A stretch of DNA of 64,000 bases from positions 96,875-160,874 of the IMG/VR virus record IMGVR_UViG_3300017605_000342; one strand, written 5' to 3'. Below the pieces are notes generated by a model, which saw nothing but the letters and a program-made list of their open reading frames with translations, made no database searches and was not told the origin of the DNA. The DNA is from a virus. Of this stretch, positions 38,995 through 50,605 are shown piece after piece. Made by a program: the position numbers and the translations under genes. Numbering within the stretch: the stretch's first letter is position 1; each line of letters opens with the position of its first letter.

Positions 38995-39372
38995 AGGCAC
39001 CATGACAAAATCGGTTAGAATAGAAAACGCAGATACTTCTTCCTATAAGGTGAAAGTTTACATAGAGCGTAAAGATCCAATGAATGGTGAATGGGTTAGA
39101 GACAGTGCCGTCAAGTCCTTGGATTTCCCTACGCATATGTTGTCAGAGTATATCCACGACAGTCAGAGACTAGTTATTGAAGAAGCATGACACCCATAGA
39201 ACTCTTTAACATAGATTGTCATGGTAGTAAAGAAGACGTTTTGTTTATAAAACGCCTGCGAGAATTTTTTGATGATGACGAGATAGAGGAAATTTTGGAA
39301 GCTATAACAGACACGTGCAGATGGTGCTGGAACAACAACTCAGATTGTTATTGTATGTGTGATGACTAATGT

Positions 39373-39449
39373 GGGGGCGCATGTACCAAGGGCGGCGATA
39401 TGCACTTGCAATGCAAATGTGGTGGGTTCAATTCCCACCGTCTCCACCA
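39373..39449 (+). tRNA. tRNA-Ala(TGC), copy 2
   Basis: GGGGGCG/CGTCTCC with G3:U70, loop CTTGCAA, T-loop TTCAATT, CCA; similar to 10022..10096. Confidence 0.85.
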
Positions 39450-39454
39450 AACAG

Positions 39455-39581
39455 ATTCTTGGTTCCTTGTGCGGGACGGCGACTTTCGTAGATTCCCGGC
39501 AGCACCGGCAATCCTTAACAAGCTGCGTGAGAGCGCACATTTCGAGAGGCTGAGACTCATAAGCCACTTTCACGGCCAAGA
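39455..39581 (+). ncRNA. Candidate structured RNA of unknown class
   Basis: Terminal ATTCTTGG/CCAAGAAT pairing enclosing the hairpins GATTCCCGG-CAGCA-CCGGCAATC, TGCGT-GAGA-GCGCA and GGCT..AGCC; intergenic. Confidence 0.35.
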
Positions 39582-40381
39582 ATATGCTTAGACAACAAAA
39601 ACTCAGTTGGTACCAACGTTGGCGCATTAAATTCGATTGGTGGTGGAATCCGCCAACCAAGGAAACCATGTGTGGTACCAAGATCAAGTATCGAGAATCT
39701 TCCGCTAGACGGGCAGCCGAAGCTATGGAACGCAAGCGGGGCGTGGTTTTTGATGCATACAAATGCCGCTTCTGTGACGGCTGGCATGTAGGCAAGGCAA
39801 GGGATGTGTGAATGTATAGACAATTTGAGTTAGAGTCTGAGAATAAAAAACATGTTTGTTGGATTGAAGATGATCCAAAGCTAAAAGTAGGCGCTTTATT
39901 TTCGTTTAAAAACGATCCTGTTGTGTGGAAGATTACACGTAAATATGGCATAGCTTTAGAAAAACCACCACGCACAGACTGGAATAACAACATATGACAA
40001 ACGCAGAAATAGACGACGCGATAAAAGATTTAGACAATGAATACTGGAAACTTTTGAAAGGCTATCTAACCGAAGATGCGATTGTTTGTGGTCACACCCG
40101 CCCCAGTGTATCCAAAGGTGAGTTAATAAAGCAACTGACAGACGACTACTACAATAAAAAGATAGCACTAGAAGCAATGCGTACCGGAGGGGCACAGGCA
40201 TGACATACAGATGTGTCGGCGTAGCGTCCTCGATTACCGAGATAGGCGCTATATTGTACGATGTAGAGTTTGACGGTAGCGATGGTTCAACTTTACTGTT
40301 AGCAAACACCACAGATGCCCACTATAATCTGGGTATGTTGTACACTTTAACCCTAGATGGGTTTCTGCCTGCGGAGGGCCA

Positions 40382-40747
40382 ATGACTTTTAATGTCGGAT
40401 CAGACGTGCATGAGACACTAACATTCTCAGATTATCAGCGATTAGCGCTGACTACAGCAAAGTACCCCAACGTAGGGAGTAATTACATCTACCCGCTATT
40501 AGGGCTTGCTGGCGAGTCCGGTGAAATCTTTGAGAAGGTTAAAAAGGTTCAGCGTGACGGGGACGGTAGCTTCACAGAAGAGAAGTTGCTGGAATTGAAA
40601 AAAGAAATCGGCGACGTGTTTTGGTACCTAGCCGCATTGTGCTCTGAATTCAAGTTTGACTTGGGTGATGTAGCGGTTGGCAATCTAGAAAAACTGTTCT
40701 CCCGTAGAGCACGCGGAGTTATCTCAGGAAGTGGTGACAATCGATGA
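40382..40747 (+). CDS. MazG-like nucleotide pyrophosphohydrolase
   Basis: LGLAGESGEIFEKVKK...KEIGDVFWY...NLEKLFSR...SGSGDNR. Confidence 0.9.
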   Translation: MTFNVGSDVHETLTFSDYQRLALTTAKYPNVGSNYIYPLLGLAGESGEIFEKVKKVQRDGDGSFTEEKLLELKKEIGDVFWYLAALCSEFKFDLGDVAVGNLEKLFSRRARGVISGSGDNR

Positions 40748-40969
40748 CAGACGAAGAAAAAGTAGTGTATAAAGATCCTGAAACAACATACAAACTGTTG
40801 CTAGCATGTGATAAAATTGGGATTACAACCGAAAAAGGCAAATGGACAATAGCACGTGTAGAACAACTTAAGGCTGAGGGTGATCCCCATGCAGTCCTTA
40901 AAGCTATTTTTGAGGCTTCTGAAGTATGGGACGGCTTCGACCACGACAAAAAACTTCCGGTAAACTAAT

Positions 40970-41716
40970 ATGCAAGACTCTCTCGGTGACAGAATGAAGA
41001 ATGACTACGAAAACAGGACTCGGTACTCCCTGCCCCGTAGAACCTACACACTGGCGCGTATAGACGGTAAGGCGTTTCATACTTTTACTAAAAACTGCAC
41101 CGCACCGTTCGATGTACGCCTCATGAATTCCATGAACTATGCAACTAGGGCCGTATGCGAAGGAACTCAAGGCTGTCAGTTTGCGTATGTTCAATCTGAT
41201 GAAGCGTCGTTCTTACTAACCGATTTCGATAACGTAAACACAGCAGCATACTTTGACGGTAATTTGCAAAAGATTTGTTCCATTATGGCGTCGATGTTTA
41301 CTGCAAAGTTTAACTATAGCTACTCTAATCTGCATAGCAAAGACATGTCATGTGCAATGTTCGATTGCCGGGTGTTCTCAATCCCAGATCCTATCGAGGT
41401 AGAAAACTACTTTTACTGGAGATGGTCCGATTGGCGACGTAATTTCTCTCAGACTGTTGGCAGAACTCACTTCTCGCACAACGAACTTGAGGGACTAAAC
41501 CGTCAGCAGATACAAGACAAACTGTACAACGAAAAACAAGTTGATTTGGCAGTATTTCCAGAAGAACAGAAACATGGCAGGTTGTGTGTTAAAAAGAATG
41601 TAGTTATAGGACTACCAGCCACAATAGTTAGTTCTTTTTGGGAAGTAATTCCATGTATGAATTTTAAAGAAAACAGAGACGTATTGCAAAGCTTAGTACC
41701 TAGACCTGGATATTGA
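40970..41716 (+). CDS. Thg1-like tRNA(His) guanylyltransferase / 3'-5' polymerase
   Basis: RMKNDYE, RIDGKAFHTFT, YVQSDE and FDCRV motifs. Confidence 0.9.
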   Translation: MQDSLGDRMKNDYENRTRYSLPRRTYTLARIDGKAFHTFTKNCTAPFDVRLMNSMNYATRAVCEGTQGCQFAYVQSDEASFLLTDFDNVNTAAYFDGNLQKICSIMASMFTAKFNYSYSNLHSKDMSCAMFDCRVFSIPDPIEVENYFYWRWSDWRRNFSQTVGRTHFSHNELEGLNRQQIQDKLYNEKQVDLAVFPEEQKHGRLCVKKNVVIGLPATIVSSFWEVIPCMNFKENRDVLQSLVPRPGY

Positions 41717-43116: not shown

Positions 43117-43630
43117 AAATGGTATGTGGTAGTGATTCCTTTTACATGCACTACGTAATGACGGCCACAGCGATGCGTCGGGAATCGGAAAAGCAAGAAC
43201 TTGCTCTGAAGGCAAGAGTAGATATCTTGACTGACGCTATGATGTTGTTGATCTACGCAGGGAAAGAGACTATAACTGGCAAAGACAGAGTTGATACCAT
43301 GTTTTTAGAGTATTTCGAGCGATTAACGGAACTAGTCAATGAGTCGCGGCCTTGAACTAACGTTCTTTTTGATGATGTTGGCGGGGTTGATCGGGTTTAT
43401 GTGGCACGAAGCTCGTAAAGACCGTACCTGTAGTATAACAGAAATGTATAGGTCTATGGGCCATGACAGCACTGAACGTGAGGGAGTGTGGCTGGACCTA
43501 GACGGAAAGCAAGAACATTGCCGGTATATTTTTTTCGAACACGGACCAGGTAGAATAGTTGGCAGCGTTGATCGGTGTCCTGAAGGACACTTGGTTATTT
43601 CAATCTCAATTCCGAAAGGACACTATCCCA

Positions 43631-44380
43631 GTGAGTAAATTACACGAACTTCTAGCAGTCGATTCAAGCTTGAAAGGTCAGGCGGAAAAAACCCGCACTG
43701 AATTAAAAAACACGTTTGAGAAAAAGCGTCATTTGTTTGAAGAGAAGAAAGTAACATTCAAGTCTTTTGACGAAGGTAAGACTCCTATTACTGAGGAACA
43801 GAAAGACATCCAGTCTACTGTTAATCAAGAACTAAAATGGATTTCTGACTTCCTGTCAAACGCAATCAACGTCAGTTTGCAGATTTCTGAGGCAAACACT
43901 GTGGCAAAGGCTTCTATCGTGCTGGATAACGGCACAGAGATTGCCAAAGACGTGCCGGCAACCCACTTGCTGGAGCTAGAAAAGAAGCTAAAAGACATTC
44001 AGGATTTGGTTTTTGCTGTCCCCACACTCGATCCTGCCAAGGGTTTTGTGGAAGATCCGGGCCGTGGCAAAAACATCTTCAAGGCGCGTGACGTTTCTAA
44101 GACACGTACCAAAAAGAAGAATGAAGTTTTAATCCTGTATCCACACACAGAACAGCATCCAGCACAGACGAAGGAAATTGTGGTGGACGTACCTGTGGGA
44201 GAAATTTTGGAACAAGAGTGGTCAGGGCTTATCACCCCGGCTGCAAAAGCTGACATGTTGTCGCGGGTTGAAGACCTAACAAGAGCCGTAAAGAAGGCAA
44301 GATCGCGTGCTAACGAAGTCGAAGTTAAATCCAAGCCTTCTCTCGGACAGACGTTGGTAAATCACATTTTCGGGTTCTAG
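43631..44380 (+). CDS. Conserved helical protein of unknown function (resembles DUF7873-type proteins from memory; unverified)
   Basis: Probable GTG start (MSKLHELLAV); VPATHLLELEK, PTLDPA, TEQHPAQ and VKKARSRAN motifs; followed directly by a structured RNA. Confidence 0.7.
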   Translation: MSKLHELLAVDSSLKGQAEKTRTELKNTFEKKRHLFEEKKVTFKSFDEGKTPITEEQKDIQSTVNQELKWISDFLSNAINVSLQISEANTVAKASIVLDNGTEIAKDVPATHLLELEKKLKDIQDLVFAVPTLDPAKGFVEDPGRGKNIFKARDVSKTRTKKKNEVLILYPHTEQHPAQTKEIVVDVPVGEILEQEWSGLITPAAKADMLSRVEDLTRAVKKARSRANEVEVKSKPSLGQTLVNHIFGF

Positions 44381-44655
44381 TAGGCTCACAGTTAAGGTTC
44401 AAGCTAATGGCGTTGTGGCAACAACGCGCTCAAGCTGAGGCTTTCACTAGATGAGGCTTACGTTGCGGTCCTGAGGGTGCAAGTTGATTCAGATTCGCTA
44501 ACCTTCTACGTTGGTTCAAATCCAACCTGGGCGGCCAAACAAATTGCATGTAGTTTATGCCTATCGCCCGGTAGTTTAGTGGTAAAACAGAAGACATAAA
44601 GTTGAGATCTGGGTCGTAACTATTCTCTCTAAATGGATTGCGTTCATTCGACCTA
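44381..44655 (+). ncRNA. Large structured RNA with embedded circularly permuted tRNA-like domain
   Basis: T-arm GTTGG-TTCAAAT-CCAAC, then CTGGGCG-G-CCA, a linker, CGCCCGG-TA and a D-arm GTTT-AGTGGTA-AAAC. Closed by CTTCT/AGAAG and the outer helix GTTGCGGTCC/GGGTCGTAAC. Boundaries approximate. Confidence 0.7.
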
Positions 44656-44730: not shown

Positions 44731-44985
44731 ATGGGAAAAGTGATTGTTGGATTTTTACTGTGTTTGATCGGCGTTGTTGTCGGTGCTTATGTTGGAATTT
44801 ATTGGGCCTTTATCGGCGGTATAGTTCAAGTTGTTACAGCAGTGCGGGCCGTCGAGCTTCTGGTTTGGCCTCTGGCTATCGGGATTGCGAAGATCATGTT
44901 CGCGGGGTTGGCGGGTTGGGTGTCGGCTTTTGTGTTCTGGATTCCCGGTGGTATTATGTTAGGCGCGGGATTGGACGAACTTTAA
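44731..44985 (+). CDS. Small two-helix membrane protein
   Basis: Almost entirely hydrophobic. Confidence 0.6.
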   Translation: MGKVIVGFLLCLIGVVVGAYVGIYWAFIGGIVQVVTAVRAVELLVWPLAIGIAKIMFAGLAGWVSAFVFWIPGGIMLGAGLDEL

Positions 44986-45225
44986 ACTAAAGTTTTATCA
45001 GCGAAATGTCGATAGGTAGGCATAGTTTCTACGGATTAAACGAGATCAAGTTGTCTTGCGGGCATAATGCTCATTCAGCTTGCGGTCGTTGTGAGAAATG
45101 TTACCAGTGCAATCACAGATCGTGGTACTCTGGTACTTCAAAAGCTTGGTACTGGCAGTGCGAAAACAAGACGGTCAGGAAAGCTCTAGGCTTTGAAACA
45201 ACGTTTCTCTCAGAAGAATTTTAAC

Positions 45226-45376
45226 TCTGACATAGTGCTTGCACGTCATACTTCTTATAGGAACCGCTGCCCTTACGGGTGCTGTGGGTTCGACCCCCAC
45301 CTTGGTGCTTCGGCATCTTGTGGCGAAACTGGCAAACGCGGCGGTAAAAGGCAGACTGCTAATAATTCTTGTCAGA
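45226..45376 (+). ncRNA. Y RNA-like 1 (YrlA-type; permuted class II/Leu-like tRNA domain)
   Basis: TCTGACA-TAGTG..ATACTTC / TTCT-TGTCAGA; variable arm GCCC-TTAC-GGGT, T-loop TTCGACC, UUCG-capped acceptor, D-arm GCGAAACTGGCAAACGC. Confidence 0.8.
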
Positions 45377-45391
45377 TATAAATTTAAGATA

Positions 45392-45454
45392 ACCGTGGTG
45401 TCTGGGTACAGTTACTTCAATTGGTGAAAAACGCTGTATTCAAGTGTTCCCGGT
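45392..45454 (+). ncRNA. Y RNA-like 2 (minimal)
   Basis: ACCG-TGGTG-TC-TGGGTACAG-TTACTTC...CTGTATTCA..TTCC-CGGT. Confidence 0.7.
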
Positions 45455-45484
45455 ATTAAGTTGAGGCGGCTACGGCTGCCTTAT

Positions 45485-45580
45485 GAAAACATCATAGTGA
45501 AGGATACGGTTACTTCTTTCTAACCAAAAGTCGGCTCTACGGGCCGAAACGTTCCGTGCCGCTCGTTCTTGATGCTTTTC
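45485..45580 (+). ncRNA. Y RNA-like 3 (hairpin insert)
   Basis: CATCA-TAGTG-AA-GGATACGG-TTACTTC...CCGTGCC..TTCT-TGATG; insert TCGGCTC-TACG-GGCCGA. Confidence 0.7.
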
Positions 45581-45584
45581 CAAT

Positions 45585-45669
45585 AACGGTCATAGTGCCG
45601 AAACAGTTACTTCTTTAACCGTGCTTTCGAGCGCCCAACAAAAGCCTGTTTCACTCATTCTTGGCTGTT
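45585..45669 (+). ncRNA. Y RNA-like 4 (hairpin insert)
   Basis: AACGGTCA-TAGTG-CC-GAAACAG-TTACTTC...CTGTTTC..TTCT-TGGCTGTT; insert GTGCT-TTCG-AGCGC. Confidence 0.7.
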
Positions 45670-45702
45670 TGCTAACTAATGGTCATTCCTTAGGAGAACA
45701 CA

Positions 45703-47061
45703 ATGAAGTCAAATGTTAAAAGAGTCAAAGCACCTGTATATACCCACGAAGGTGCGCGTGCGTACAATATCAGCGCATACAATGAGCTACGCAGATCTAT
45801 TCTAAGCTGCTTGCTGTGGGAAAAAGAGTTTTACGAAAGTGGCGTTGACATTGCAAAGCGTGTCGCTGATCTGGTCACGAAAGTGTCGCCGGATAAGGTT
45901 GCTGCTCTAGCTATCGAGGCGAGAGAGAAACAGCATTTGCGCCACATGCCTCTGTTCTTGGTACGACAGATGGCTAAGTTGGATACACACAAATACCTAG
46001 TTGCGGAAACTTTGCAGCGCGTGATTCAGCGTGCTGACGAACTGGCTGAGTTCTTGGCGATTTACTTTGGAGACAACAAGTCACAGCCGCTGTCTGCACA
46101 GGTGAAAAAGGGCCTTGCAAAAGCCTTTGATAAGTTCAACGAATATCAGTTTGCAAAGTATGATCGTGACGGCGACTTCAAGTTGCGTGACGTGATGTTT
46201 TTGACTCACCCTCGTCCGAAGGAAACTTCAGGGACTTACGGGAAAAAGCGTCAGCGTCTAACGTCTGAGGAAAAGCTGTTCAAGGGTATCGCAGAGCGCA
46301 CACTGGCAACCCCGGACACGTGGGAAGTGGAACTGTCTGCGGGTGCTGACAAGCGTGCGACCTTCGAGCGTTTGATTGCAGAAGAAAAGCTTGGTGGTTT
46401 GGCTTTCTTGCGCAACCTACGCAACATGGCACAAGCTGGTGTTGATCGCAAGGTAATTAAAAGATACGTAGAATCTTCAAACTTTAAGCGTGTGCTGCCT
46501 TTTAGATTTATTTCTGCTGCAAGATTCGTTCCTCAGTGGGAAGACCTGATCGAGCAGGGCATGTTGAAATGTGTTGCAGATTTTGAAAAGATGCCTGGAC
46601 GCACTGTGTTGCTTGTAGACGTTTCTGGGTCTATGAACGACAAGTTGTCGGGTAAGTCTGAAATGTTGAGACTGGATGCGGCCTACGGGTTGGCAATTCT
46701 GGTCCGAGAGTTGTGTGAAGATTCAAGTATTTATAGCTTCTCAAATAGCACGATTGCAATTCCTAATAGACGCGGGTTTGCTCTGCGGGATGCCATCGAC
46801 AAGTCGCAATCACACGGCGGCACGTTGCTAGGCGAAGCTGTGAAGCATGTAGATAAGCATGTGAAATATGATCGGCTGATCGTTATCACAGACGAGCAGT
46901 CACACGACCGTGTGCCGGCTCCTAAAGGTAAAGGTTACATGATTAACATCGCATCAAATCGAAATGGTGTCGGTTACGGTCCTTGGACACACATTGACGG
47001 ATTTTCGGAAAATGTGGTAACTTACATCTTGCAGGCTGAACAGTTTTCTGAGACACGCTAA
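45703..47061 (+). CDS. rsr: Ro60/Rsr TROVE-domain RNA-binding protein
   Basis: THEGA, LLWEKEFYESG, QRADELAEF, FNEYQFAKY, TPDTWEVELS, LRNLRN, LPFRF; vWA VDVSGSM and ITDEQ; SD AGGAG. Confidence 0.93.
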   Translation: MKSNVKRVKAPVYTHEGARAYNISAYNELRRSILSCLLWEKEFYESGVDIAKRVADLVTKVSPDKVAALAIEAREKQHLRHMPLFLVRQMAKLDTHKYLVAETLQRVIQRADELAEFLAIYFGDNKSQPLSAQVKKGLAKAFDKFNEYQFAKYDRDGDFKLRDVMFLTHPRPKETSGTYGKKRQRLTSEEKLFKGIAERTLATPDTWEVELSAGADKRATFERLIAEEKLGGLAFLRNLRNMAQAGVDRKVIKRYVESSNFKRVLPFRFISAARFVPQWEDLIEQGMLKCVADFEKMPGRTVLLVDVSGSMNDKLSGKSEMLRLDAAYGLAILVRELCEDSSIYSFSNSTIAIPNRRGFALRDAIDKSQSHGGTLLGEAVKHVDKHVKYDRLIVITDEQSHDRVPAPKGKGYMINIASNRNGVGYGPWTHIDGFSENVVTYILQAEQFSETR

Positions 47062-47068
47062 ACAAGAA

Positions 47069-47198
47069 AGCCAATGGTGCTAGGAAACAGATACTTCTCC
47101 TTTTAAGAGGGTGAACCGAGGGTCGAATCTCGGCATGTGCATCTGCACTGTAGCTTATAGCAAAGCACCAAACGTCCTGTTCCGCTCTTTCCTTGGCT
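47069..47198 (+). ncRNA. Y RNA-like 5 (degenerate permuted tRNA domain with Lys-UUU-like loop)
   Basis: AGCCAA-TGGTG..ATACTTC / TTCC-TTGGCT; CTC-CTTTTAA-GAG, CCGAG-GGTCGAAT-CTCGG, GCTT..AAGC D-like arm. Confidence 0.75.
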
Positions 47199-47239
47199 CC
47201 AAGAGTGCCGGGTAGCCACTAGGTTATCCGGCATCAAAA

Positions 47240-47375
47240 ACCTAATGGTGTTAGAGACAGATACTTCTCCTTGAATAGAGAGTGATCTGGGTTCGAATCC
47301 CAGCGGCCCCAACACTGTGGGGCTGTAGTTTAACGGAAAAACCCTAAAAATAGCTGTTTCGTCTGTTCCTTAGGT
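47240..47375 (+). ncRNA. Y RNA-like 6 (permuted tRNA domain)
   Basis: ACCTAA-TGGTG..ATACTTC / TTCC-TTAGGT; CTGGG-TTCGAAT-CCCAG, CGGCCCC/GGGGCTG closed acceptor, GTTT..AAAC D-arm. Confidence 0.8.
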
Positions 47376-47402
47376 ACACATAAAACAAACAAAGGGAAAC
47401 AA

Positions 47403-47807
47403 ATGGCAAACTCAATCAACAAAGTGACTTTGGTAGGTAGACTTGGAAAAAATCCTGACCTTTCTTTTTTGCCCTCTGGCGTAGCAGTTGCAAAGTTTCC
47501 TGTCGCAACTGACGAGCAGTGGACAGATAAAGACGGTAACAAGCAGGAACGCACAGAATGGCATAACGTAGTGGCATGGCGCAAACTGGCCGAGATTTGC
47601 GCGAAGTACCTCGTTAAAGGCAAGTTGGTCTACCTGGACGGCAAGATCCAAACTCGGTCTTACGAAGATAAAGAGGGCAATAAGCGGTACATTACAGAGA
47701 TTATCGCCGATAATATGGTGATGTTGTCTCGTACTGGTGAAGGTAGTGACGACGCTGCTAAGACGGCGGCGGCAACTGCCGGAAGCGACGGTGACGCTCC
47801 CTTCTAA
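47403..47807 (+). CDS. ssb: Single-stranded DNA-binding protein
   Basis: INKVTLVGRLGKNP, TEWHNVV, YLDGKIQTR; acidic DAPF C-terminus. Confidence 0.95.
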   Translation: MANSINKVTLVGRLGKNPDLSFLPSGVAVAKFPVATDEQWTDKDGNKQERTEWHNVVAWRKLAEICAKYLVKGKLVYLDGKIQTRSYEDKEGNKRYITEIIADNMVMLSRTGEGSDDAAKTAAATAGSDGDAPF

Positions 47808-47815
47808 CAATTTAC

Positions 47816-47890
47816 TGCGGGTGAGTGAACCGGTTGTCACGCTAGTCTCATAAGCTAGAAAGCAGGGTTCAACTCCCTGACCCGCAACCA
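47816..47890 (+). tRNA. tRNA-Met(CAT)
   Basis: TGCGGGT/ACCCGCA acceptor, CTAGT-CTCATAA-GCTAG, T-loop TTCAACT, CCA. Confidence 0.88.
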
Positions 47891-47894
47891 AAAT

Positions 47895-47961
47895 TCCGAT
47901 GGTGCAGATTACAGTTACTTCTATCTAAAGAAAAAACGACTGTGATCGTTAATTCCTCGGA
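47895..47961 (+). ncRNA. Y RNA-like 7 (minimal)
   Basis: TCCGA-TGGTG-CA-GATTACAG-TTACTTC...CTGTGATC..TTCC-TCGGA. Confidence 0.72.
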
Positions 47962-47965
47962 TACA

Positions 47966-48115
47966 TTTTTATCAATGGTGCCGTGTACGGTTACTTCTCC
48001 ATGCAGAAGGCCGTGGGTTCGAATCCCACCTTGGCGGCTTTAAACGCTGCCTTGTAGCTCAGTTGGTTAGAGCATCCGCCCAAAAAAGCCCGACACATTA
48101 ATTCCTTGATAAAAA
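47966..48115 (+). ncRNA. Y RNA-like 8 (YrlA-type permuted tRNA domain)
   Basis: TTTTTATCAA-TGGTG..TTACTTC / TTCC-TTGATAAAAA; GTGGG-TTCGAAT-CCCAC, closed acceptor, D-arm GCTC-AGTTGGTTA-GAGC. Confidence 0.85.
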
Positions 48116-48468
48116 CTTTCTATATTATCAATGACAAAACTACATCCCAGCGTAGCTGAGCATTATGCTGCTTACAAGCGGCGATGGGATTCCCTACCTT
48201 CTCACGTACAATCACAGATAAAAGCAATCATAAGCACAGCAGCCTTCGAGCAGAATGGCCAAGGGTTTACCTTAGGGTTCACGATGGGATGCAACGTCAT
48301 GTTGGAACATACCCTGAATTGGGTCAACACGGCATTGACTACCGAACCGGAAAGCCCAGAACTGCTCACCCTAAAAGACATGGTTTCTTGGACACTAATC
48401 GCATTGTTCTTACAAACATATGAGGTTACACTGTTAGAGCAACTAGACACAACTAAAGGTTTGGCAAA

Positions 48469-48858: not shown

Positions 48859-49043
48859 AAATCTATTCATACTCCCTAGCGGAGTCCGCATCGTCGGCTT
48901 TGATTCCTTGGAGATCATGGCTAGGATATGTAACATCTCTGTCATGGACTTTGCCCAAGGTTATGGTACTATGGTAGAAAAACTGATGGTTTCAAGGTTA
49001 TCGTCACGTAAAGATCCCCTTGCCGGGAAACTTGAAGAGTAAT

Positions 49044-49418
49044 ATGTCAGGTAAAGAGTTATTATTTTCCGTCACCGCCAAAGACTGCGAGTTACAAACG
49101 TTTACTTGCGGTAAGAAAGGCGGTGGCGGGAAAGACACTAGCAACAACGGAGTCCGGTTGATACATCATCCCTCTGGGGCACGTGGAGAAGGACGGGACA
49201 CGCGTGACCAGAAGGTTAACAAGCGCAATGCATTTTTGCGCCTGATAAGAACCAAAGAATTTAAGGATTGGCATCGGGCCGAAGTTGTTAAACGGCTGTG
49301 CTATCCTGTTACAGACGTGAACAAAGCTGTGGATACAGCAATGGCTCCACAAAATTTGCGTGTTGAAGTACAAATAGAGCGAGGATGGGTCGATGAAAGT
49401 AAAAACACTGTTGAATAA
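49044..49418 (+). CDS. Peptide-chain release factor (RF-1 domain)-like protein with GGG in place of GGQ
   Basis: ELQTFTCGKKGGGGKDTSNNGVRLIHHPSG...RDQKVNKRNAF matches the RF domain-3 layout. Confidence 0.75.
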   Translation: MSGKELLFSVTAKDCELQTFTCGKKGGGGKDTSNNGVRLIHHPSGARGEGRDTRDQKVNKRNAFLRLIRTKEFKDWHRAEVVKRLCYPVTDVNKAVDTAMAPQNLRVEVQIERGWVDESKNTVE

Positions 49419-49698
49419 AGAATCTAAATGGGTAAAGAATGTCTACGAAGAACAAGGCAGATATTGTTTGCTGGGAGCGCTTCAGGAATGTTATGGAGGC
49501 AGTGCGGGGCACCCGCCACTCGGCAATGCAGGCGAAGCTTATAGAGATGCTAAGAAGAAAGTAGAGTCAGCGATCAAGGAATTTGCAACGTTACGTAGAG
49601 TTAGAGTAGCAAAAAAGCCTGATATCGTCAGATTTAACGATAACAAAAATATTACCTTTAAGGATATTCGCAAAGTAATACGAGCAGCAAATGTTTAA
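49393..49698 (+). CDS. Hypothetical protein
   Basis: W.K..Y...GRYCLLGA...FND motif common in phage small proteins. Confidence 0.5.
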   Translation: MKVKTLLNKESKWVKNVYEEQGRYCLLGALQECYGGSAGHPPLGNAGEAYRDAKKKVESAIKEFATLRRVRVAKKPDIVRFNDNKNITFKDIRKVIRAANV

Positions 49699-50128
49699 TC
49701 TAAGTTACACACAACCTGCGAGGTTACGGGGCCAGATTCATATGGAGAAACCTATAACCTCGTTAGGTACGCACACAGACATTCACGGTAATCGTTGGGA
49801 TGTCAAGATGGCTCGCTTTGTAGACGGTAAAAACTTTGTCGCTGCTGTACCTACTGATGAATTACACCCATACTATAGCGACACTTCTATGACACAATAT
49901 GACTTTGTAGAACAAGTTTGGGAACCATACGAGGTAATAGTCCATGAAAATCACAAGCAAGTTAGTAAAAGACTTTGAGTTGTCACAGGAACTTTACGGA
50001 ACTAAAGTAGCATTGGGTAACATCTTGTGGGATGTTGCGGCCAGTTTGTACAAAGACTTGGGCGTAACAAGAATACGTACTTCTTACAAGATCCACGAGT
50101 CTAAAGACAGAACACGAAAGTCACTCTA

Positions 50129-50605
50129 ATGCAACTTACAAAGGTAATCAGTGGCGGGCAGAACGGGGTAGATCAGGCCGGGTTGCACGCTGCTAGGATC
50201 GTGGGAATTCCCACTGGAGGACATGCTCCACGTGGGTTTAAGACCTTGGACGGGCCTAATCTGGCATTAAGAGATACGTTCGGACTGGAAGAAACGTTAG
50301 AATCCGGCTATCCACCTAGAACAGAGCTTAACGTGATGAACTCCGATGCTACTCTACAAATAGCCAAGGACTTCAGTTCTGCTGGAGAGGCTCTAACGAC
50401 TAGGCTGATCCTGAAGCATATGCGCCACCGCCTGCCACTGCATCCGGCGCTAAATCCAGGTGTAGACCAAGTTGTTGCATGGATCATATCAAAGCAGATT
50501 ACAGTGTTAAATGTAGCCGGCAATTCTTTGAAGACGTGGCCTGAAGCTTTCGAGTGGGCTTATCCCTTTTTAGTAGAGGTCTTTGGTAAACTACATGCTA
50601 GGTGA
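50129..50605 (+). CDS. SLOG-family (molybdenum-carrier-like) nucleotide-binding protein
   Basis: KVISGGQNGVDQAGL, YPPRTELNVMNSDATL and VLNVAG. Confidence 0.8.
   Translation: MQLTKVISGGQNGVDQAGLHAARIVGIPTGGHAPRGFKTLDGPNLALRDTFGLEETLESGYPPRTELNVMNSDATLQIAKDFSSAGEALTTRLILKHMRHRLPLHPALNPGVDQVVAWIISKQITVLNVAGNSLKTWPEAFEWAYPFLVEVFGKLHAR

What the first reader, a model, noticed from the sequence alone, without database searches (positions are those of the whole stretch)
45226..48115. The Y-RNA domains mimic different tRNA classes; one shows a perfect tRNA-Lys(UUU) anticodon loop
Seen: unit 1 mimics a class II Leu-like tRNA (long variable arm, GCGAAACTGGCAAACGC D-arm). Unit 6 has an Ala-like GGGGCTG acceptor without G3:U70. 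Unit 8 has a canonical AGCTCAGTTGGTTAGAGC D-arm. Unit 5 has CTC-CTTTTAA-GAG placed 5' of the variable region and T-arm, like an anticodon arm. Units 1 and 8 share a C-TT...TT-G tandem U.U mismatch at the base of the loop-closed acceptor. Most units form a small hairpin with a different loop right after TACTTC. Known: tRNA-Lys(UUU) is the target of PrrC and of the PARIS effector AriB. Inference: these uncharged, loop-closed mimics may act as a decoy panel for anticodon nucleases or tRNA-binding enzymes.
Basis: partly seen in the sequence, partly recalled or inferred. Interest (0 to 1): 0.72.

Follow-up and report, generated by a model that had tools for sequence, protein, structure and literature searches.

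The report
Phage Ro60 Y RNAs mimicking tRNAs
A large phage carries a Ro60 gene surrounded by eight partner "Y RNA" genes, four built like rearranged tRNAs; the lysine-type anticodon loop in one is an instance of a family-wide, fast-changing anticodon-arm imitation that published work labels a "variable arm".

Summary
A TROVE+vWA Ro60 gene (45703-47061) is flanked on the same strand by eight units sharing one handle: N6-(A/G)U(G/A)GUG ... UACUUC on the 5' side and UUCC(U)UG-N6 on the 3' side. U1, U5, U6 and U8 carry a permuted tRNA body; U2, U3, U4 and U7 are short. These are Y RNAs of the known YrlA/YrlB kind.

The hairpin after UAC is what Chen et al. 2014 call stem-loop "V". In 100 viral and 125 bacterial relatives it has anticodon-arm geometry. 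The stem is 5 bp, with free pairs Watson-Crick in 100/100 viral units. The loop is 7 nt, with U33 99%, R37 99% and A38 92%. An AGGUC variable loop follows. Positions 34-36 change 4-12 times faster than the rest. U36-A37 and G36-G37 are strictly coupled, as in real tRNAs.

U5's CUUUUAA is one of about 30 triplets, so the hairpin is conserved but "Lys" is not. Folded alone, U5 prefers a slipped hairpin. Only one of this phage's four tRNA-like units has a canonical 7-nt loop.

The decoy idea is plausible but untested. Other agents of this scan reached the same anticodon-arm reading on other genomes.

The parts
45227..45375 (+). U1: Y RNA with a class II (Leu-like) permuted tRNA body. Small hairpin 45252-45263, extra arm 45268-45281, T-arm 45284-45300, closed acceptor 45301-45320, D-arm 45323-45339; CCGC 45264-67 can pair with GCGG 45341-44.
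   Evidence: best match to the phage's own tRNA-Leu genes; class A model 15 bits, E 0.03
45392..45454 (+). U2: short Y RNA, handle plus small hairpin UUCA-AUUGG-UGAA, no tRNA body
45490..45574 (+). U3: short Y RNA, handle plus a GC-rich hairpin, no tRNA body
45585..45669 (+). U4: short Y RNA, handle plus a small hairpin, no tRNA body
45703..47061 (+). Ro60/Rsr ortholog, 452 aa, TROVE plus vWA domains
   Evidence: TROVE E 5.8e-15; Ro60 vWA E 6.5e-05, 23.4 bits, below its 27.7-bit cutoff; Thermus phage phiLo Ro60, PDB 9KOP/9L5Y, E 8e-31; 35 IMG/VR homologs
47069..47198 (+). U5: Y RNA with a permuted tRNA-like body and a degenerate elbow. T-arm 47116-47133 has an 8-nt loop; closed acceptor 47134-47150; D-arm 47153-47166 lacks GG.
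   Evidence: class A model 33.8 bits, E 3e-07, full-length alignment
47095..47111 (+). U5 anticodon-arm mimic: UUCUC / CUUUUAA / GAGGG, loop identical to tRNA-Lys(UUU)
   Evidence: aligned at high posterior to the model's anticodon-like hairpin; 26 of 30 real tRNA-Lys(UUU) loops in the held loci read CUUUUAA; a slipped register is more stable in isolation
47240..47375 (+). U6: Y RNA with a permuted tRNA body. Hairpin 47265-47282 with an 8-nt loop, T-arm 47287-47303, 7-bp closed acceptor 47304-47325 (GGGGCUG strand), D-arm 47328-47342.
   Evidence: YrlA 26.1 bits; 45.4 bits, E 2.6e-10
47895..47961 (+). U7: short Y RNA that starts 5 nt after tRNA-Met (47816-47890)
47970..48111 (+). U8: Y RNA with a permuted tRNA body. 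Hairpin 47994-48009 with a 6-nt loop, T-arm 48013-48029, closed acceptor 48030-48054, canonical D-arm 48057-48073.
   Evidence: YrlA 31.4 bits; 52 bits, E 4.7e-12

Best explanation
The stretch is a phage Ro60 (Rsr) gene embedded in an array of eight Y-RNA genes of the YrlA/YrlB kind. Every unit closes with the same two-strand handle, which by homology is the Ro60-binding module. Four units insert into that handle a circularly permuted tRNA-like body. Its order is UAC, anticodon-arm-like hairpin, variable region, T-arm, loop-closed acceptor, U8-N9, D-arm. The handle therefore enters between tRNA positions 26 and 27.

The hairpin after UAC, called 'V' in the literature, is an anticodon-arm mimic across the family. 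U5 carries the tRNA-Lys(UUU) loop version.

Proposed mechanism. Ro60 holds the handle; this is inferred from homology. The tRNA body and its anticodon-like loop are displayed to tRNA-recognising proteins. The triplet at positions 34-36 is the variable specificity element. Its most likely partners are anticodon-loop-directed enzymes (nucleases or modifiers), with the Y RNA acting as bait, competitor or sentinel; this last step is inference only.

My sub-odds: YrlA-type Y RNAs 0.9; the hairpin is an anticodon-arm mimic 0.8; bait for anticodon-directed enzymes about 0.25.
For: Identity. The gene is TROVE+vWA and matches phage phiLo Ro60. All eight handles lie on the same strand, at most about 1.05 kb from the gene. 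There are weak YrlA hits. A covariance model built from 63 relatives scores U8 at 52, U6 at 45.4 and U5 at 33.8 bits.

Anticodon-arm reading. The search pattern left positions 30, 31, 39, 40 and the loop free.
- In 100 viral units, 30:40 and 31:39 are Watson-Crick in 100/100, with four pair types each.
- U33 is 99%, R37 99% and A38 92%.
- An AGGUC variable loop and a T-arm follow; this part was fixed by the pattern.
- 125 bacterial units look similar.
- On alignment A1, 98.3% of cells pair against 74.3% when shuffled. Covariation is 0.626 against 0.140, with 0 of 500 shuffles reaching it, and slid controls pair at 51% or less.
- In-silico un-permutation makes ARAGORN call most relatives with a well-formed hairpin as full tRNAs, with the expected anticodon as the commonest call.

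The triplet as a specificity element.
- In independent close pairs, positions 34-36 differ at 0.33-0.47 per site, against 0.03-0.11 for the rest and 0.20 for the closed-acceptor loop.
- U36-A37 occurs 72 times and G36-G37 21 times; the crossed combinations U36-G37 and G36-A37 never occur, p = 3e-21.
- 71 of 100 loops are identical at 7/7 positions to real tRNA anticodon loops, against 45 +/- 3.4 when column-shuffled.

Context.
- The genome has 25 tRNA genes, three RNA-ligase-family ORFs and a Thg1-like gene 4 kb upstream.
- The PARIS nuclease AriB cleaves tRNA-Lys(UUU), Thr(UGU) and Asn(GUU) (PMC12409363). These three triplets make up 36 of the 100 viral units.
- A Ro60-like protein of phage Bas63 counters a defence system (PMC11482910).
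Against: There is no expression, binding or cleavage datum for any unit.

In U5 the 7-nt-loop form is not the predicted minimum: -1.8 against -5.0 kcal/mol for a slipped hairpin. U5's T- and D-loops are degenerate, and ARAGORN finds no tRNA in un-permuted U5.

U1, U6 and U8 have loops of 6, 8 and 6 nt, so this phage shows one canonical anticodon-like loop, not a panel.

The same design sits at chromosomal rsr loci of Bradyrhizobium, Dactylosporangium and others, so a phage-specific counter-defence role is not required.

The high rate at 34-36 is only about twice that of the closed-acceptor loop, so relaxed constraint cannot be excluded. The match to AriB targets is post hoc.

The only phage Ro60 studied biochemically acts through host PNPase, with no role assigned to an anticodon (PMC12135203).

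Rfam's YrlA gathering score is not reached: 31.4 and 26.1 against 69 bits.
Confidence: 0.5

Rival explanations
1. The hairpin is only a structural spacer, the published 'variable arm'. Its triplet drifts freely. The RNP works as described for Thermus phage phiLo and Deinococcus: Ro60 plus Y RNA binds host PNPase and modulates RNA decay, and the tRNA fold mainly protects the RNA from nucleases.
For: Chen et al. 2014 label the hairpin V and propose nuclease protection or PNPase binding. phiLo Ro60 with Yrl1/2 forms complexes with host PNPase and attenuates it. The window's Ro60 matches phiLo Ro60. Four of the eight units have no tRNA body at all. In U1, U6 and U8 the loop is not 7 nt. U5's loop is predicted to collapse.
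Against: A spacer needs neither U33 at 99%, R37 at 99% and A38 at 92%, nor a strict U36-A37 / G36-G37 coupling, nor 7/7 identity to real anticodon loops well above the column-shuffled expectation. The hairpin is followed by a separate 5-nt AGGUC variable loop, so it does not occupy the variable-arm position. U1 has a real extra arm in addition to the small hairpin.
Confidence: 0.27
2. Adaptor model. The anticodon-like loop recruits one specific tRNA-binding enzyme to Ro60, such as an anticodon-reading aminoacyl-tRNA synthetase, the t6A or TrmD machinery, or a repair enzyme (RNA ligase or Thg1-like). It acts as a tether rather than a decoy.
For: Y RNAs are known tethers, for example to PNPase in Deinococcus (PMC4201824). 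71% of loops carry U36-A37-A38 and 21% carry G36-G37. From textbook knowledge, these are the determinants of t6A37 and m1G37 enzymes. Thg1-like and RNA-ligase genes are in the same genome. Salmonella YrlA is a substrate of TruB and DusA (PMC4201824).
Against: A tether to one conserved enzyme predicts a conserved triplet within a lineage. Instead, near-identical Bradyrhizobium and Dactylosporangium units differ mainly in the triplet. No partner is known.
Confidence: 0.13
3. Guide model. The displayed triplet base-pairs with a complementary RNA, either a codon-like triplet or another tRNA's anticodon, and so directs Ro60 and its nuclease to particular RNAs.
For: A U-turn loop with U33 and R37 is the classical way to present three bases for pairing. 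The triplet is the only fast-changing part.
Against: Three base pairs give little specificity. The 36-37 coupling and the whole-loop identity to real tRNA loops are not needed for pairing. No complementary target was sought or found.
Confidence: 0.06
4. The tRNA-like units are working permuted or split tRNAs. RNase P and 3' processing open the closed acceptor, CCA is added, and the two-piece RNA is charged and decodes.
For: M. smegmatis YrlA is cut by RNase P and receives CCA in vivo (PMC4201824). U6 has exactly 7 acceptor pairs. ARAGORN calls un-permuted relatives as tRNAs.
Against: No CCA is encoded in the closing loops of U1, U5, U6 or U8. Many relatives close the acceptor with 6 bp and a GNRA-type tetraloop. 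The Ro60 handle remains inserted at position 26/27. No CCA-adding enzyme was found in the phage genome. The phage already has a normal tRNA-Lys(UUU).
Confidence: 0.04

Closest known systems
YrlA (Y RNA-like A, Rfam RF02553) with bacterial and phage Ro60/Rsr (Chen et al. 2014, PMC4201824; Wang et al. 2018, bioRxiv 10.1101/312249)
   Same: - Encoded beside Ro60 and on the same strand.
- 5'/3' closing stem with a conserved 5' motif.
- Conserved YUAY (here UUAC or AUAC).
- The order T-arm, closed acceptor-like stem, UA, D-arm.
- Several Y RNAs per locus, including short YrlB-like ones.
- Already found in 22 phages.
   Different: - Salmonella YrlA, the solved structure, 'lacks the anticodon loop'. 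Its handle-proximal helix plays the anticodon stem.
- The published model calls the hairpin upstream of T a 'less-conserved' variable arm. Here and in 225 relatives it has anticodon-arm geometry and an anticodon-loop signature, and a separate AGGUC variable loop follows it.
- The literal GNCGAA motif is replaced by GGUG-type sequence.
- Rfam scores (31 and 26 bits) are below the 69-bit threshold.
- Eight units in one locus is the largest count among the loci I inspected.
Thermus phage phiLo Ro60 with Yrl1/Yrl2 (PMC12135203; PDB 9KOP, 9L5Y)
   Same: A phage-encoded Ro60 with its own Y RNA-like genes next to it. The window's protein matches it at E 8e-31.
   Different: phiLo has two short Y RNA-like genes, and that paper describes no tRNA-like body or anticodon-like loop. 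Its tested activity is binding and attenuation of host PNPase.
Phage-encoded tRNAs that neutralise anticodon nucleases (T5 tRNA-Lys/Thr/Asn variants against PARIS AriB: PMC11464382, PMC12409363)
   Same: A phage RNA carrying a Lys(UUU)-type anticodon loop, in a genome rich in tRNA and RNA-repair genes. Asn, Thr and Lys triplets are common in the viral class A units.
   Different: Those are real, chargeable tRNAs that replace the cleaved host tRNA. The units here have a closed acceptor and a Ro60 handle, and cannot decode as they stand.
Permuted tRNA-like RNAs that follow DUF7873 genes
   Same: The order is T-arm first, then the acceptor strands, then the D-arm. The class A model gives a weak hit of 24.9 bits.
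   Different: There is no Ro60 handle, CCA is encoded after the acceptor 3' strand, and the partner gene is different.

Membership tests
YrlA / bacterial-type Y RNA (RF02553) | Encoded within about 4 kb of a Ro60/Rsr (TROVE) gene, on the same strand | tested here: met
   All eight units are on the + strand, from 476 nt upstream to 1,050 nt downstream of the TROVE+vWA ORF. The same holds in 86 of 100 viral and 95 of 120 bacterial loci.
YrlA / bacterial-type Y RNA (RF02553) | 5' and 3' ends form a stem carrying the Ro60-binding motif (GNCGAAN0-1G near the 5' end) | tested here: inconclusive
   All eight units have a terminal stem of 4-8 bp and a conserved (A/G)U(G/A)GUG opposite UUCC(U)UG. The literal GNCGAA is absent; relatives read GGUGAAG or GGCGUAG. 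Binding was not tested.
YrlA / bacterial-type Y RNA (RF02553) | Conserved YUAY before the V region | tested here: met
   UUAC or AUAC (CAUAC in U1) immediately precedes UUC in all eight units.
YrlA / bacterial-type Y RNA (RF02553) | tRNA-like T-arm, then a closed acceptor-like stem, then UA and a D-arm with GG | tested here: met
   U1, U6 and U8 are canonical. U5 has the arms, but with an 8-nt T-loop and no GG. U2, U3, U4 and U7 lack the body and are YrlB-like.
YrlA / bacterial-type Y RNA (RF02553) | Reaches Rfam's gathering score of 69 bits | tested here: not met
   U8 scores 31.4 bits (E 4e-4) and U6 26.1 bits (E 0.014). The other units give no YrlA hit. The Rfam model has no anticodon-like hairpin.
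YrlA / bacterial-type Y RNA (RF02553) | Bound by Ro60 in cells; carries pseudouridine-55 and dihydrouridine | not testable with these tools
   Needs RIP or CLIP and modification mapping.
Class A YrlA with anticodon-arm mimic (my model R1, built from 63 IMG/VR units) | Full-length match to UAC / 5-bp stem / 7-nt loop / AGGUC / T-arm / closed acceptor / UA / D-arm | tested here: met
   U8 scores 52 bits, U6 45.4, U5 33.8 and U1 15, which is marginal. Only U5 keeps the 5-bp/7-nt hairpin; U6 has an 8-nt loop and U8 a 6-nt loop.
Genuine or permuted tRNA gene | Detected as a tRNA, with a free acceptor end carrying or able to receive CCA | tested here: not met
   ARAGORN calls none of the units and Rfam gives none a tRNA hit above threshold (U8: 20 bits against 29). 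The acceptors are loop-closed and have no CCA. Un-permuted U5 is not called as a tRNA.
Anticodon-nuclease decoy or bait | Is bound or cleaved by an anticodon nuclease, or protects host or phage tRNA from it | not testable with these tools
   Only indirect evidence: a fast-changing triplet, loops like real tRNA loops and a tRNA-repair gene context.

The most novel reading that the evidence does not exclude
YrlA-type Y RNAs are Ro60-tethered anticodon-loop baits. The 'V' hairpin is a faithful copy of a real tRNA anticodon loop, including the determinants of its position-37 modification. Its triplet is under diversifying selection because it tracks the specificity of anticodon-directed nucleases or toxins, whether phage-defence systems, colicin-type tRNases or toxin-antitoxin RNases. 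The Y RNA either soaks up the nuclease or, once cut, signals through Ro60 to RNA repair or decay. On this reading U5 would be this phage's Lys(UUU)-type bait, against PrrC- or AriB-like enzymes.
Probability: 0.2. Interest if true: 0.85.

Novelty: new variant of a known kind. Interest (0 to 1): 0.6.

Why it matters
What the tRNA-like domain of bacterial and phage Y RNAs is for has been open since 2014: no partner of that domain is known. If the hairpin called 'V' is an anticodon-arm copy whose triplet is the fast-evolving part, the search narrows to proteins that read anticodon loops. That gives a simple experimental handle: swap the triplet and look for changed partners, cleavage or phage plating. 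It also supports the proposal that YrlA arose from a tRNA dimer, because the first tRNA's anticodon arm is still there. For this phage, it adds a Ro60 particle with eight alternative RNAs to an already heavy investment in tRNA supply and repair.

Tried and rejected
- Rfam at gathering thresholds finds no YrlA in the window. Only sub-threshold hits appear with E-value reporting.
- blastn against 50,697 phage records found no close relative. The only hits were three short stretches at 70-78% identity covering 3-5% of the query.
- Un-permuting the window's own units for ARAGORN gave nothing for U5 and inconsistent calls for U1, U6 and U8. The 'full tRNA' result therefore holds for relatives, not for this phage's copies.
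- Recent copying of the anticodon arms from tRNA genes is rejected. The stem is constant across the family (UUCGN/NCGAG) while only the loop changes.
- My first close-pair rate estimate was biased because identical pairs were excluded. I redid it with them included and added the closed-acceptor loop as a weakly constrained yardstick.
- My first 'identical to real tRNA loops' count was contaminated. ARAGORN itself calls about 100 class A units as tRNAs in linear order. These were removed.
- The promoter and terminator scan of 44900-48300 gave nothing above shuffles.
- RtcB and a CCA-adding enzyme were sought in the phage genome and not found. The record is only about 77% complete.
- A 'Lys-specific' reading is rejected: CUUUUAA is rare among relatives.
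- PMC10870794, the 2020 Annual Review on bacterial Ro60, could not be read. I therefore cannot exclude that the anticodon-like nature of 'V' is mentioned there.

Full report
WHAT IS THERE

The window is the last 64 kb of a 160,874-nt IMG/VR virus record. At 45703-47061 (+) lies a 452-aa ORF with a TROVE domain and a Ro60-type vWA domain. It matches the solved Ro60 of Thermus phage phiLo (PDB 9KOP/9L5Y) at E 8e-31.

Eight units surround it on the same strand and share one design. Each has a terminal stem of 4-8 bp, a conserved (A/G)U(G/A)GUG on the 5' strand opposite UUCC(U)UG on the 3' strand, a second short helix, and then (U/A)UACUUC. A regex for the 5' handle over the whole genome shows these eight as the only cluster; its other hits are scattered single matches that I did not examine.

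U1, U5, U6 and U8 carry, inside the handle, a T-arm, a loop-closed acceptor-like stem, U8-N9 and a D-arm, in that order. U2, U3, U4 and U7 carry only a small hairpin. U7 starts five bases after a real tRNA-Met. No promoter or terminator stands out, which fits a processed polycistronic transcript; this last point is inference.

Each one holds.

- U1 has a 3-bp D-stem with an 11-nt loop, preceded by UG rather than UA, and an extra 5-bp arm in front of the T-arm. When its two halves are put back in tRNA order, its best matches among the phage's own 25 tRNAs are the tRNA-Leu genes. They take ranks 1, 2 and 4, with score 45 against a shuffled mean of 16.8 and max of 37.
- U6 has GGGGCUG with G3-C70.
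- U8 has a textbook D-arm.
- U1 and U8 share tandem U-U at the base of the closed acceptor.
- U5 has UUCUC-CUUUUAA-GAGGG at 47095-47111, then UGAA and a T-arm.

One correction: the small hairpin does not follow TACTTC. Its 5' strand is the UUC of that motif.

WHAT KIND OF THING IT IS

This is the YrlA/YrlB class of Y RNAs. Chen et al. 2014 (PMC4201824) described RNAs next to Ro60 in 254 bacteria and 22 phages. [quoted passage not shown] Wang et al. 2018 (10.1101/312249) solved the Salmonella domain and state that YrlA 'lacks the anticodon loop'.

tRNA mimicry, phage copies and several Y RNAs per locus are therefore known. Rfam's model recognises only U8 (31.4 bits) and U6 (26.1 bits), below its 69-bit threshold.

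THE HAIRPIN IN RELATIVES

The Ro60 protein retrieved 35 IMG/VR loci at 28-65% identity by best segment, 47-57% for most full-length matches. Most carry two to six units with the same UACUUC junction.

In many tRNA-like units the sequence after UAC reads UUCNN, seven bases, NNGAG, AGGUC, then the T-arm. I searched IMG/VR with a pattern that fixes only UACUUC, GAGAGGUC and GGUUC and obtained 100 distinct units.

- In 86 of the 100 loci a TROVE gene lies on the same strand, usually within a few hundred bases.
- At the two stem pairs the pattern left free, pairing is Watson-Crick in 100/100, with four pair types at each.
- The loop has U at position 33 in 99 units, a purine at 37 in 99 and A at 38 in 92, while 34-36 take about 30 different triplets.
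95 of 120 loci have a TROVE hit, and the loop signature is similar.
- On a 63-sequence alignment, the four-helix structure pairs in 98.3% of cells against 74.3% when shuffled. The covariation score is 0.626 against 0.140, with 0 of 500 shuffles reaching it, and slid controls stay at 51% or below.

A 5-bp stem with a 7-nt U33/R37 loop, followed by a separate 5-nt AGGUC loop, is the geometry of an anticodon arm plus a class I variable loop. It is not the geometry of a class II variable arm. The handle therefore enters the tRNA between positions 26 and 27, and the body is a complete tRNA mimic in rotated order.

In-silico rotation makes ARAGORN call most relatives with a well-formed hairpin as full tRNAs, with the expected anticodon as the commonest call. 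ARAGORN also calls about 100 of these units as tRNAs in linear order, using the 5' handle as acceptor and D-arm. This fits the tRNA-dimer origin proposed by Sim and Wolin, as cited.

THE TRIPLET

- Among independent pairs of units that differ by at most 5-20% elsewhere, positions 34-36 differ at 0.33-0.47 per site, against 0.03-0.11 for the rest.
- The closed-acceptor loop, used as a weakly constrained yardstick, differs at 0.20 per site.
- U36 is always followed by A37 (72 units) and G36 by G37 (21 units); the crossed combinations U36-G37 and G36-A37 never occur, p = 3e-21. This is the rule seen in real tRNAs.
- 71 of 100 viral and 82 of 125 bacterial loops are identical at all seven positions to anticodon loops of real tRNAs in the same loci. 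Column-shuffled controls give 45 +/- 3.4 and 52 +/- 4.2.
- The stems are nearly constant, so the loops were not imported along with whole tRNA arms.

The loop therefore looks like a maintained copy of genuine anticodon loops whose identity changes quickly. The commonest viral triplets are GUU (21), GCU (17), UGU (12), GAU (6), UGG (6), UCU (5) and UUU (3).

BACK TO THIS WINDOW

My covariance model of the class scores U8 at 52, U6 at 45.4, U5 at 33.8 and U1 at 15 bits. U5 aligns over its full length, with its hairpin on the model's anticodon-like hairpin.

- U5 is the only unit here with a 5-bp/7-nt hairpin.
- Its loop equals the commonest real tRNA-Lys(UUU) loop in my set, 26 of 30.
- Its elbow is degenerate: an 8-nt T-loop and no GG in the D-loop.
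- Un-permuted, it is not called as a tRNA.
- Folded alone, its hairpin prefers a slipped register with a 3-nt loop, at -5.0 against -1.8 kcal/mol.
- U6 and U8 have good elbows but loops of 8 and 6 nt.

So this phage shows four different tRNA-like bodies but only one canonical anticodon-like loop.

HOW IT PROBABLY WORKS

Shown: the anatomy, the linkage to Ro60, and the family-wide conservation and variation pattern.

Inferred from homology: Ro60 binds the handle. This rests on Stein 2005 and Chen 2013 as cited in PMC4201824, and on phiLo Ro60 binding its Yrl RNAs (PMC12135203).

Inferred: the tRNA body is displayed to tRNA-recognising proteins, and the triplet sets which one. I rank bait, competitor or sentinel for anticodon-directed enzymes first, at about 0.25.

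In favour of that ranking:
- The fast-changing triplet and the real-loop mimicry.
- The phage's 25 tRNAs, three RNA-ligase-family ORFs and a Thg1-like gene.
- The published fact that AriB cleaves tRNA-Lys(UUU), Thr(UGU) and Asn(GUU), while phage T5 counters with its own tRNAs (PMC12409363).
- A Ro60-like protein of phage Bas63 counters a defence system (PMC11482910).

Against it:
- No experiment exists.
- The design is equally common at chromosomal rsr loci.
- The rate excess over a weakly constrained loop is only about two-fold.
- The only phage Ro60 tested acts on PNPase.

COMPARISON AND NOVELTY

These are members of the known YrlA kind by linkage, handle, YUAY and arm order, although they fall below Rfam's threshold. 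Four things seem to go beyond the papers I could read:
- the hairpin called V is an anticodon-arm mimic;
- it has a hypervariable triplet;
- it obeys tRNA-like 36-37 coupling;
- one phage locus can hold eight units, including a class II Leu-like body.

I could not read the 2020 Annual Review.

Other agents of this scan reached the same anticodon-arm reading on other genomes (e1-5618027, e1-5358201, e1-3458875). I saw those notes only after my own analysis. They are not independent evidence.

Noticed in passing
window 44484-44595 (+), just after the DUF7873 ORF 43559-44380: A permuted tRNA-like RNA. Its order is CUUCU, T-arm, acceptor 3' strand CUGGGCG, G, an encoded CCA, a 27-nt linker, acceptor 5' strand CGCCCGG, UA, D-arm, GAAG. 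It has no Ro60 handle. The class A model scores it at 24.9 bits. It appears to be a separate tRNA-mimic family that travels with DUF7873.
   Followed up: partly
window 39373-39449 (+): A candidate unannotated tRNA-Ala(UGC)-like gene. The acceptor is GGGGGCG/CGUCUCC with G3-U70, the loop is CUUGCAA, the T-arm is good and ACCA is encoded, but the D region is aberrant. ARAGORN and Rfam at gathering score both miss it. It lies opposite a 217-aa minus-strand ORF (39340-39993). It was found through a 22.5-bit hit of my model.
   Followed up: partly
window 45676-45693 (+): CUAAUGGUCAUUCCUUAG looks like an empty Y-RNA handle, with both handle strands and nothing between them. It overlaps the ribosome-binding site of the Ro60 gene. 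It could be a remnant unit or a Ro60 autoregulatory site.
   Followed up: no
window 40382-41716 and 49020-50605; genome C1 20097-23215 and 49609-50091: An RNA-maintenance gene set around the locus and elsewhere in the genome. In the window: MazG, a Thg1-like 3'-5' nucleotidyltransferase, an RF-1-domain protein and a cpYpsA SLOG protein. Elsewhere: three RNA-ligase-family (PF09414) ORFs and 25 tRNA genes. No RtcB or CCA-adding enzyme was found.
   Followed up: partly
loci L037-L268 (class A units): ARAGORN calls about 100 class A Y RNAs as tRNAs in their linear order, using the 5' handle strand (GGCGUAGAG...GGUUAC) as acceptor and D-arm. Such units may be mis-annotated as tRNA genes in public records. 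The result also fits an origin from a tRNA dimer.
   Followed up: partly
window 45463-45482 and 47206-47234 (+): GC-rich hairpins lie between U2 and U3 and between U5 and U6. Neither has a following U-run. They may be processing signals or further small RNAs.
   Followed up: no
L023:2732-2800 (+): In one related locus a normal-order tRNA follows a UACUUC junction directly. The handle-plus-tRNA arrangement therefore also exists un-permuted.
   Followed up: no
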